This document shows positions 61,107-63,235 of a stretch of 64,000 nt of DNA, in pieces. The stretch covers positions 36,270,001-36,334,000 of the forward strand of contig OX597835.1 in NCBI GenBank assembly GCA_951406725.2, read 5' to 3'. The position numbers and the translations under genes are program-made. Source of the stretch: Octopus vulgaris (taxonomy: Eukaryota). The notes below the pieces were generated by a model. That model had not been told where the DNA came from. It made no database searches and was given only the letters and a program-made list of their open reading frames with translations. Numbering within the stretch: the stretch's first letter is position 1; the number at the start of each line of letters is the position of its first letter.

Positions 61107-61249
61107 GCAATAAAGATTCAAGTTAATTTAAATGAATTTACTTGAATATGGTACCTAACTTAGATGCACCAAAAAAAACTATACTGTTTTAACAATACAG
61201 TAATGTGGGGTGATTATAAGCGAGAAAGAAGCAACAAGAATGGATAGGT

Positions 61250-61340
61250 TTTTAGTACAATCGTTTCATACAAGGACAGGCTTTATTAAAAGTTGCAAAA
61301 ATTACAGCATATAAACGTGTCCCGTACTCATCAGCTAAAA
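61250..61340 (-). ncRNA. Mirror-image hammerhead ribozyme on the other palindrome arm
   Basis: Reverse complement of 61676-61766. Confidence 0.75.
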
Positions 61341-61675
61341 TACATGTGAGTTCTCTAGACATCCTAGTGGTTGAGGCTATACTCATGAAGTAATGTAGAT
61401 AATTAAGTAACATAAACAGATTTCCAAAGTTCATTAAAGTTCTTTAAAGATGATGTACAATCTTATCACAGAATTTTAAAAAGTTTTAATAGCATCACAG
61501 AGAAGGTGACCTTCTCTGTGATGCTATTAAAACTTTTTAAAATTCTGTGATAAGACTGTACATCATCTTTAAAGAACTTTAATGAACTTTGGAAATCTGT
61601 TTATGTTACTTAATTATCTACATTACTTCATGAGTATAGCCTCAACCACTAGGATGTCTAGAGAACTCACATGTA

Positions 61676-61766
61676 TTTTAGCTGATGAGTACGGGACACG
61701 TTTATATGCTGTAATTTTTGCAACTTTTAATAAAGCCTGTCCTTGTATGAAACGATTGTACTAAAA
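61676..61766 (+). ncRNA. Minimal type I hammerhead ribozyme (Penelope-like-element type)
   Basis: Stem I ttttag(61676-81)/ctaaaa(61761-66), CTGATGA 61682-88, stem II gtac.ggac...gtcc..gtat, GAAAC 61749-53, short loop gatt, cleavage triplet GTA 61758-60. Confidence 0.75.
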
Positions 61767-61796
61767 ACCTATCCATTCTTGTTGCTTCTTTCTCGC

Positions 61797-61881
<85 letters not shown>

Positions 61882-62000: not shown

Positions 62001-62034
<34 letters not shown>

Positions 62035-62037
62035 GAC

Positions 62038-62181
62038 AATACCAAACTCATTCCCTATGGATACCGTATTTATTACAACTCGTGGCTTGTAAACGTATCT
62101 AACTCGCTTTCGCTCGTTAGATACGTTTACAAGCCACTCGTTGTAATAAATACGGTATCCATAGGGAATGAGTTTGGTATT
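62038..62181 (-). other. 144-nt terminal hairpin (42-bp + 22-bp stems, two tandem GA mismatches, GCGAAAGC cap on the minus strand)
   Basis: Arms 62038-79/62140-81 and 62082-103/62116-137 are perfectly complementary. The only non-Watson-Crick stem positions are tc/tc on plus, which read ga/ga on minus. Confidence 0.95.
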
Positions 62182-62469
62182 TTATTTATTACACACGAAT
62201 AAACGACCATATTTTATTAATCTAATAATTAAATTCTTCACATCATGTTGAAGCGCGCATGAATACAGCTTGATTTCACGTCAGTGACGTCACAATGTGT
62301 AACTGTAAAAGATGTCATGCCGCAGGAAGATAGTCCGACTTTATTGCGCTAAGTTTTCAGGTGAAATGACTGATAACTGATGACTATTTAACATTTTGTT
62401 AACATTCAAGTTCACGTTCAAGAAATACATAACACAGATTGAATCTTCAATAACTTTAATAATACTCAA

Positions 62470-62791
62470 ACATGATTTCGAGTAGCAATGTCAGTCAGAG
62501 TAGAGCTCAGTAGTCCAGTAAAACCAAAGAAGTTCACATTGAATGTTCCCCCAAATATTGGAGCCGAGAAAATGGAGTGCAATGAACCAAAGCAAGTGAC
62601 AGCGTTCCGAGATTGACTCGACGTAACGTTGACGGTGGAGGGAGTTCACTTGCACTCGCTGCTGCTGTGTGTGACGGAGGTAGAAGCGAACCCGGCTGGT
62701 CGTTGTTGCTACTAAGGATGTTACTGATGGCACGATGACGATCCATGGAAATATTGCTGTAACTATTGATGCTTTGCACATTACGATGTCC
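62470..62791 (-). pseudogene. C-terminal remnant of a Crypton/DUF3504 (KIAA1958-like) tyrosine recombinase
   Basis: GHRNVQSINSYSNISMDRHRAISNILSS: H-x8-Y spacing as in YR box II (His codon 62788-86, Tyr codon 62761-59). It is followed by a low-complexity S/P/A linker and, in a shifted frame, SIFSAPIFGGTFNVNFF. The upstream H-x-x-R motif is absent. Confidence 0.7.
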
Positions 62792-63235
62792 CTGGTATAA
62801 AAAAAGATAGTATGTTTGTTTAATTATATGGCTACATTCTACCTGCTCGTGAAAGTTTAGTTGTAACTTATGAATGACAAAAGTAGTGCCGTCACCGTGA
62901 CCTTGGGTCATCACCATGGATTGACCAATCAGAAGCAGCGCTCGCAGTATCTGACATATGTTAGATACCAAAAATATCTCAAAGTGTTCTCACTCACATG
63001 TGTGTAATAAATATATATATATATTTCAACACGGAGCAAATTATTCATGAGAAAAATAATTCACGTCCAAATACCTGAATGTATGCTGAGAGATTGTCTC
63101 AGTCCGTTTGCCTCCGGACGGTAGATTTCTGTAGTTATTATCAGTATATTTTGGCGATTTAAATGAGAGTTTTGACTGTTATTTCCAGCAGGTAGACATA
63201 CTTAGTATGTCCTTTGATTAATTGTAATCCTTCAG

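What the first reader, a model, noticed from the sequence alone, without database searches (positions are those of the whole stretch)
62038..62181. Strand-selective hairpin: tandem G.A pairs and a GCGAAAGC cap
Seen: 64 perfect base pairs, and both interruptions are the same 2x2 mismatch (TC/TC on plus, GA/GA on minus). The minus-strand apex reads aac-GA-gc-GAAA-gc-GA-gtt. Known: 5'-GA/3'-AG tandem sheared pairs are stable, d(GCGAAAGC) is an unusually stable DNA mini-hairpin, and GAAA is a GNRA loop in RNA. Inference: the mismatches are not random decay. Only the minus strand, which is the recombinase coding strand, folds into a continuous rod. That points to a single-stranded DNA or RNA intermediate such as a recombination site, replication primer/origin or terminator.
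Basis: partly seen in the sequence, partly recalled or inferred. Interest (0 to 1): 0.8.

Follow-up and report, generated by a model that had tools for sequence, protein, structure and literature searches.

The report
Flipping hairpin end of octopus transposon
The hairpin is one end of a multi-copy, recombinase-carrying (Crypton-type) jumping gene; its conserved G·A mismatches usually lie on the non-coding strand and this copy is a flipped form, so the element likely moves as folded single-stranded DNA, which would give a testable mechanism for a poorly understood animal transposon group.

Summary
The hairpin is real (66 pairs, two 2x2 bubbles). It is one end of a 979-bp deletion derivative of a ~2.4-kb DUF3504 tyrosine-recombinase (Crypton-type) transposon with at least 268 copies. 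The bubbles are not decay: 701 of 731 half-sites read GA or TC, and a 40%-identical relative keeps three GA/GA bubbles in unrelated stems. The window copy is a flipped, arm-converted derivative, and both strands fold almost equally in models. Arms copy from each other, apparently at or before insertion. The far end is complementary to a segment just inside the hairpin, which would pair the circle junction; this pairing covaries in relatives. Insertion is precise, without target duplication. Most likely the recombinase acts on a folded single strand, integron-like (inferred, 0.55). Flipped and cap-less copies seem to move too, and no raw reads tested the flips. The scan noted this hairpin design earlier in corals; junction pairing and flip statistics are added here.

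The parts
62032..63010 (.). Non-autonomous deletion derivative of a ~2.4-kb Crypton-type tyrosine-recombinase transposon, sitting in a (TA)n stretch
   Evidence: Maps to positions 1-807 and 2196-2412 of long copy L112; ends defined on 73 copies
62038..62181 (.). Terminal 144-nt hairpin, here in the flipped/converted state
62048..62050 (+). Bubble A, outer arm: converted here to the complement of the inner arm (hence no bubble in this copy); GAG in 76 of 96 copies
62080..62081 (+). Bubble B, outer arm (TC here, GA in most copies)
62104..62115 (+). Cap: bubble C, two G-C pairs and 4-nt loop; inverted as one unit here relative to most copies
62138..62139 (+). Bubble B, inner arm (TC here, GA in most copies)
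62170..62171 (+). Bubble A, inner arm (GA, as in 93 of 96 copies)
62073..62092 (.). 6-bp inverted repeat around an 8-bp spacer that holds bubble B (mirror copy at 62127-62146); looks like a recombinase core site, untested
   Evidence: sequence directly; coordinates
62183..62196 (+). Segment just inside the hairpin, complementary to the far end plus the first bases of the element (ICR-like)
62523..62791 (-). C-terminal remnant of the recombinase, including the second catalytic His and the Tyr; frameshifted
   Evidence: tblastn with P0003, 95-98% identity
63000..63010 (+). Far end of the element, complementary to 62183-62196

Best explanation
The hairpin is the structured end of a Crypton-type (DUF3504 tyrosine-recombinase) DNA transposon, and the recombinase likely acts on the folded non-coding single strand rather than on plain duplex DNA. 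Shown: element, ends, target, copy states, conservation of the design. Inferred: when the non-coding strand is exposed (for example at a replication fork) it folds into a rod braced by tandem sheared G·A pairs and a GAAA cap; the segment just inside the rod pairs across the joined ends, so a single-stranded circle would present a duplex recombination site; one strand exchange at ATAA^A with an ATAH^W target inserts it without target duplication, and host replication would finish the job, as for integron attC. While the arms are paired, template switching or mismatch repair copies one arm onto the other and inverts the cap; the window copy is such a flipped product. The long-term lineage keeps GA on the non-coding strand, so converted copies are likely poorer donors.
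For: Long copies encode DUF3504 + Phage_integrase + QRICH1 domains with R-H-R-H-Y and a Cre-like fold. 701 of 731 bubble half-sites are GA or TC against 0.9% change per non-CpG stem site. The A-left variant is the exact reverse complement of A-right including its private base, so arms copy from each other. Only 3 stem changes are compensated against 194 not, 1.8 expected by double hits: copying predates private mutation. 7 of 7 long copies are GA on the non-coding strand; the window's end variant is shared only with three such copies. L155 (40% identical recombinase) keeps the same start, three GA/GA bubbles on the same strand in unrelated stems, and a 13-nt far-end complement of different sequence (longest in 30 shuffles: 9); L164 likewise 13 nt (shuffles up to 10). 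GA/GA is 11 of 33 2x2 bubbles downstream of 80 related genes. The natural head-to-tail junction in L055 extends the stem by 14 pairs. Empty sites show no duplication.
Against: Both strands fold within about 2 kcal/mol in DNA models. 18 of 72 intact caps are flipped and 24 of 96 copies have lost the cap, including long copy L110 with an open frame. Two pairs of flipped copies with different flanks share three changes each (L014/L239, L021/L257), so flipped copies may transpose (or were converted by neighbours about 0.6 Mb away). Across relatives the strand bias is 9 loci GA/GA against 3 TC/TC, not significant alone (p 0.15), and most of the 63 loci with 300 or more bases downstream showed no such bubble. 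A far-end complement beyond all shuffles was seen in 2 of 8 testable relatives, borderline in a third. No single-stranded or circular form was observed, and no binding or cleavage was tested.
Confidence: 0.55

Rival explanations
1. The element moves as an ordinary double-stranded circle (the textbook Crypton model); the repeated ACGAG motifs are accessory protein sites read in duplex DNA or in a cruciform, and no free single strand is needed.
For: Cre-like fold with a full catalytic set; flipped and cap-less copies are common; circular-DNA model cited in PMC3212892 (passages).
Against: The motifs fall exactly opposite each other in the fold in families with different stem lengths; the inner segment covaries with the far end; junctions show one fixed crossover point instead of a duplicated or mixed spacer.
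Confidence: 0.22
2. For the flips alone: the element's own recombinase inverts the cap between the two 6+8+6 sites around bubble B in duplex DNA. Exchange between the two unequal spacers would give, after replication, a flipped cap with B paired on one side.
For: B is one-sided in 15 of 18 flipped copies against 14 of 52 unflipped (Fisher p 5e-5), as this model predicts.
Against: It does not explain conversions at A (20 outer, 3 inner of 96). Host template switching gives arm homogenisation and spacer inversion without a recombinase (PMC8604942, abstract). A related family flips inside an unchanged B (L177).
Confidence: 0.3
3. The hairpin is a self-priming origin for rolling-hairpin copying (parvovirus-like flip/flop; comparison recalled, not tested).
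For: Terminal position; both cap orientations occur; on the coding strand it lies at the 3' end.
Against: Whole-hairpin flips are rare: the inner A site is changed in 3 of 96 copies while the cap is flipped in 18. No HUH nuclease or polymerase domain in the long frame.
Confidence: 0.08
4. The flips and conversions are assembly or polishing errors in a palindrome.
For: Palindromes are error-prone in assembly (own knowledge); the one raw-read run laid 0 reads and contigs could not phase the arms.
Against: Private arm mutations stay uncompensated (3 against 194); the A sites are asymmetric (16 against 3 of the first 100 listed); a converted site carries later CpG decay its partner lacks (L091); duplicated loci L057/L058 share their state. 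The conserved GA design would stand in any case.
Confidence: 0.08
5. It works as RNA (GNRA loop, terminator, small-RNA precursor).
For: RNA parameters favour the GA strand by 9.5 kcal/mol in an ordinary copy.
Against: That strand is antisense to the gene in ordinary copies; no Rfam family reaches its threshold here. Expression was not tested.
Confidence: 0.04

Closest known systems
Animal Crypton transposons, CryptonA/DUF3504 lineage (Kojima & Jurka 2011, PMC3212892; passages and section 8 read)
   Same: Single tyrosine-recombinase gene with DUF3504; abundant non-autonomous deletion derivatives; no direct or inverted repeat between the two ends.
   Different: That paper reports no terminal repeats in animal Cryptons and has no occurrence of 'hairpin' or 'palindrom'; here one end is a 144-nt hairpin with conserved G·A bubbles and an inner segment complementary to the far end.
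CryptonV (Repbase group; seen only as a sentence and a reference in PMC8869645, and a table entry in PMC4455052)
   Same: Recombinase-only DNA transposon; a short AT-rich target that (TA)n satisfies.
   Different: Most copies here are not in microsatellites. The Repbase entries could not be read, so group assignment and any earlier mention of the hairpin are open.
Integron attC/IntI and CTX-phage integration (PMC3458562 abstract and discussion; PMC5027507 abstract)
   Same: Tyrosine recombinase, imperfect hairpin whose unpaired features differ between strands, predicted single exchange resolved by replication.
   Different: Eukaryotic, self-mobile element; symmetric G·A tandems instead of extrahelical bases; enzyme is closer in fold to Cre (Z 18.2) than to IntI (Z 13.3); single-strand use is inferred only.
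DIRS1 retrotransposons with an internal complementary region (PMC7192593, passages)
   Same: Tyrosine recombinase; an inner segment complementary to both outer ends, predicted to pair across the circle junction on the antisense strand.
   Different: No reverse transcriptase or Gag, no inverted LTRs; the complementary segment is about 14 nt, not 88, and abuts a terminal hairpin.
CGAG block of tandem sheared G·A pairs (PMC10085684, passages)
   Same: Bubbles B and C have the same C-GA-G / C-GA-G arrangement shown by NMR to be stable.
   Different: There a promoter repeat; here spaced blocks in a long transposon stem.

Membership tests
Crypton (recombinase-only DNA transposon) | Encodes a tyrosine recombinase with catalytic R-H-R-Y | tested here: met
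   Pfam PF00589 and PF12012 above cut-off; R327, R458, H481, Y490 invariant in 45 homologues, H455 present; Cre-like fold
Crypton (recombinase-only DNA transposon) | No reverse transcriptase or DDE transposase | tested here: met
   One 522-aa frame and two short overlapping frames in the 2.43-kb copy L110; only three Pfam families in the long frame; the short frames were not scanned
Crypton (recombinase-only DNA transposon) | Dispersed copies with fixed ends and no terminal inverted repeats between the ends | tested here: met
   At least 268 copies; fixed ends in 73 copies
Crypton, fungal/oomycete type | 4-6-bp direct repeats at both ends | tested here: not met
   Empty sites show no duplication; only the ATA of the target echoes the element's end. 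Animal Cryptons are also described without them
CryptonA versus CryptonV | Place in the recombinase tree with Repbase reference elements | not testable with these tools
   No Repbase sequences available; DUF3504 points to the CryptonA lineage
Integron attC-like site | Recombined as a folded single strand, one strand preferred | not testable with these tools
   Needs biochemistry; indirect support
Integron attC-like site | IntI-family enzyme and cassette array | tested here: inconclusive
   Cre ranks above IntI in fold comparison; no array seen; the IntI-specific insertion was not examined
DIRS1 retrotransposon | Reverse transcriptase, Gag and inverted LTRs | tested here: not met
DIRS1 retrotransposon | Internal region complementary to both outer ends | tested here: met
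   14-pair extension across the natural L055 junction; different sequence, same pairing in L155 and L164

The most novel reading that the evidence does not exclude
Animal DUF3504 Cryptons form a class of eukaryotic DNA transposons that move as folded single-stranded DNA: a terminal rod marked by sheared G·A blocks picks the strand, an ICR-like segment splints the joined ends into a duplex site, and the tyrosine recombinase integrates by one strand exchange. The flipped caps and arm conversions in copies are the fossil record of that intermediate.
Probability: 0.45. Interest if true: 0.85.

Novelty: new variant of a known kind. Interest (0 to 1): 0.62.

Why it matters
How animal Cryptons move is open: they are described as lacking terminal repeats, and the duplex-circle model rests on analogy (PMC3212892). 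This family gives exact ends, a target rule, a natural open-frame recombinase and a structured end conserved from octopus to distant marine relatives, so the question becomes a bench test with oligonucleotides. If true, it would extend folded-single-strand recombination, known from integrons and CTX phage, to an animal DNA transposon, link Cryptons to DIRS1 ends, and suggest what DNA shape the ancestors of ZMYM/QRICH1/KIAA1958 bound.

Tried and rejected
Rfam: no family at threshold over the hairpin; one chance hit at E 0.96. Viral contigs: no relative with the protein or the alignment. Nine stretches around other DUF3504-like frames of this genome show only microsatellite hairpins, probably domesticated genes, so no second family for covariation in this genome. 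Raw reads: run X24 laid 0 reads; contigs of three runs showed no other letters at the bubbles, which is uninformative because contigs are laid in their best orientation. Empty-site search: 1 clean case among 91 copies, one diverged hit, and self-hits of the L055 dimer. Subfamily structure in the 416-bp class was too weak for a tree; states are mixed within it (52 copies). State against length: any converted site in 35 of 63 copies under 500 bp and 20 of 40 of 500-1500 bp, no trend. Dropped rows: 3 copies with a truncated outer arm and 1 not recovered, of the 100 listed; the 40 hits are biased to the window's state and were not used as a sampling frame for frequencies, but some of them are among the 134-137 copies. 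Local micro-inversion of each bubble rejected for site A because the variant carries the other arm's private base. Earlier notes by sequence, by flip words and by place gave nothing. Literature: searches listed no paper that, by title or abstract start, describes a Crypton terminal hairpin; two papers were searched for the words and have none. Repbase Reports, subscription reviews and supplements were not seen.

Full report
Observation. Window 62038-62181 folds into 42 + 22 + 2 pairs with two 2x2 bubbles and a 4-nt loop. Both strands give nearly the same rod in DNA models, -73.7 (minus) and -72.2 (plus) kcal/mol, with 0 of 200 shuffles as stable. The description is right; 'only one strand folds' is not shown by these models.

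What it belongs to. The hairpin has 359 candidate matches in the genome; the 40 scored are 96-100% identical. Exact patterns give 145 copies with an intact cap, 268 with the inner junction and 243 with the outer end. Flank comparison defines an element from 62032 to 63010. Six long copies measure 2356-2426 bp. The long frame matches DUF3504, Phage_integrase and QRICH1 above cut-off, keeps R327, R458, H481 and Y490 in all 45 aligned homologues and is predicted to fold like Cre (Z 18.2, rmsd 4.4, 293 aligned; IntI Z 13.3). The best homologue is named from an octopus (96%), the other named ones mostly from molluscs and cnidarians; the host is therefore inferred to be an octopus. The window copy keeps only the C-terminal remnant on the minus strand. 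This is a Crypton-type element with short deletion derivatives.

Ends and target. In 73 copies the element runs from A[T/G]AGAG to GTGTGTAATAA; before it stand A (57), T (66), A (71) and a variable base, after it A (47) or T (21). An empty copy of L004's host repeat joins the two flanks with no gap or overlap (1 clean case of 91 tested), and contigs of three public runs show the empty form of the L076 site. So there is one crossover point and no target duplication.

The strand. I took the first 100 copies listed by the inner-junction pattern, recovered 99 and dropped 3 with a truncated outer arm. Of 96, the cap reads GA-GC-GAAA-GC-GA on the non-coding strand in 54, is inverted in 18 and is deleted in 24; the other sites are GA in 76 (A outer), 72 (B outer), 66 (B inner) and 93 (A inner). 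An earlier sample of 50 gave 39 against 11. Ordinary copies thus have three GA/GA bubbles on the strand opposite to the gene. All 7 long copies fetched are GA at every site they retain, and the window's end variant is shared only with three of them.

The toggling. Of 731 bubble half-sites in 134 copies, 534 are GA and 167 TC, while non-CpG stem sites change at 0.9% (this set includes copies chosen for likeness to the window). The cap inverts as a unit (no one-sided case among 103, 1 of 50). The A-outer variant is the reverse complement of A-inner including its private base, so one arm is copied from the other; it occurs in 16 of the first 100 listed (counted by eye) against 3 of 100 for the reverse direction. 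B is one-sided in 15 of 18 flipped and 14 of 52 unflipped copies (p 5e-5). Private stem changes are compensated in 3 cases against 194 not, with 1.8 expected from double hits. Inference: arms exchanged information at or before insertion, not gradually afterwards and not mainly in assembly. Template switching is known to homogenise arms and invert spacers (PMC8604942, abstract); inversion by the element's own enzyme at the 6+8+6 sites around B predicts the same one-sided products; my data do not separate the two. One-sided conversion erases a bubble for good, so its survival in the long copies implies selection (inference).

Conservation. Among 80 metagenome loci with related recombinases, GA/GA made up 11 of 33 2x2 bubbles within 1500 bases downstream on the non-coding strand, in 9 loci; TC/TC 4, in 3 loci; in shuffles no type exceeded 3 of 55. 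The 9:3 strand bias is not significant alone, and most loci showed no such bubble. L155 (40% identity) is the clearest: same starting bases, three GA/GA bubbles, unrelated stems. L177 shows an inverted cap and L181 a paired B, weak evidence because short-read assemblies can flip loops.

Junction pairing. The far end is complementary to 62183-62196. The natural head-to-tail junction in L055 folds with 14 extra pairs across the joint. L155 and L164 have 13-nt far-end complements of different sequence, longer than any of 30 shuffles; L171 (12 nt) is borderline; L172 and L201 are within chance; L169, L181 and L212 show none; L177 and L182 lack the far end. This resembles the DIRS1 internal complementary region, which is essential there (PMC7192593, passages), but without reverse transcriptase.

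Mechanism. Most likely (0.55) the recombinase works on the folded non-coding strand: sheared G·A blocks, stable in this C-GA-G context (PMC10085684, passages), mark or brace the strand; the inner segment turns the joined ends into a duplex site; one exchange and host replication insert the element, as shown for integron attC (PMC3458562, abstract and discussion; strand choice by unpaired features, PMC5027507, abstract). All these steps are inferred. Against: near-equal model energies; many flipped and cap-less copies; two pairs of flipped copies with different flanks that share three changes; a 43-nt cap deletion that arose after insertion in duplicated loci; no raw-read test.

Novelty. Kojima and Jurka found no terminal repeats in animal Cryptons (PMC3212892, section 8); that paper and a 2026 CryptonA paper (PMC13465315, passages) have no occurrence of 'hairpin' or 'palindrom'; searches listed nothing closer. 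Repbase entries and supplements were not seen and may describe the structure. Two earlier notes of this scan report the same GA/GA hairpin design and the integron analogy in corals; they are unchecked notes, seen after I had formed this reading, and not independent support. Added here: the strand correction, the flip and conversion statistics, precise ends, and the covarying junction pairing. Verdict: new variant of a known kind, interest 0.62.

Noticed in passing
window 61215-61801: A 293-bp inverted repeat, 99% complementary with 1 nt between the arms. The arm is a separate young repeat (1276 candidates, 98-100% identity) often found as facing pairs 0.1-3 kb apart: a long-inverted-repeat element collapsed to its arms. 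Family not identified; a Penelope-like look is recalled only.
   Followed up: partly
L055:1100-2120: Natural head-to-tail dimer of two elements with different hairpin states; it shows the joined-end sequence.
   Followed up: yes
hairpin outer arm next to bubble B, window 62075-62077: A 3-nt deletion recurs in 14 of 137 copies; in L084 it is mirrored on the other arm.
   Followed up: partly
hairpin interior: Recurrent 54-nt (9 + 4 copies) and 43-nt (7 copies) deletions between short direct repeats; the 54-nt form leaves a 12+8+12 palindrome like a loxP/FRT site and is also seen in public contigs.
   Followed up: partly
L162, L169, L190, L199, L202, L227, about 200-400 bases upstream of the gene: A second, shorter imperfect hairpin shared by several metagenome relatives at the 5' side of the recombinase.
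   Followed up: no
L080, L081, L245, L246, L253, L254, L269, L283: Copies carried in a larger duplicated unit with shared flanks or the same 43-nt deletion; L042-L046 form a similar cluster on C17.
   Followed up: no
L138, L146-L153: Eight diverged DUF3504-like open frames (21-34% identity) without hairpins, probably domesticated Crypton genes.
   Followed up: partly
P0003 residues 65-118: A confidently predicted small beta-sheet domain N-terminal of the recombinase, with no Pfam match; a candidate reader of the G·A blocks.
   Followed up: no
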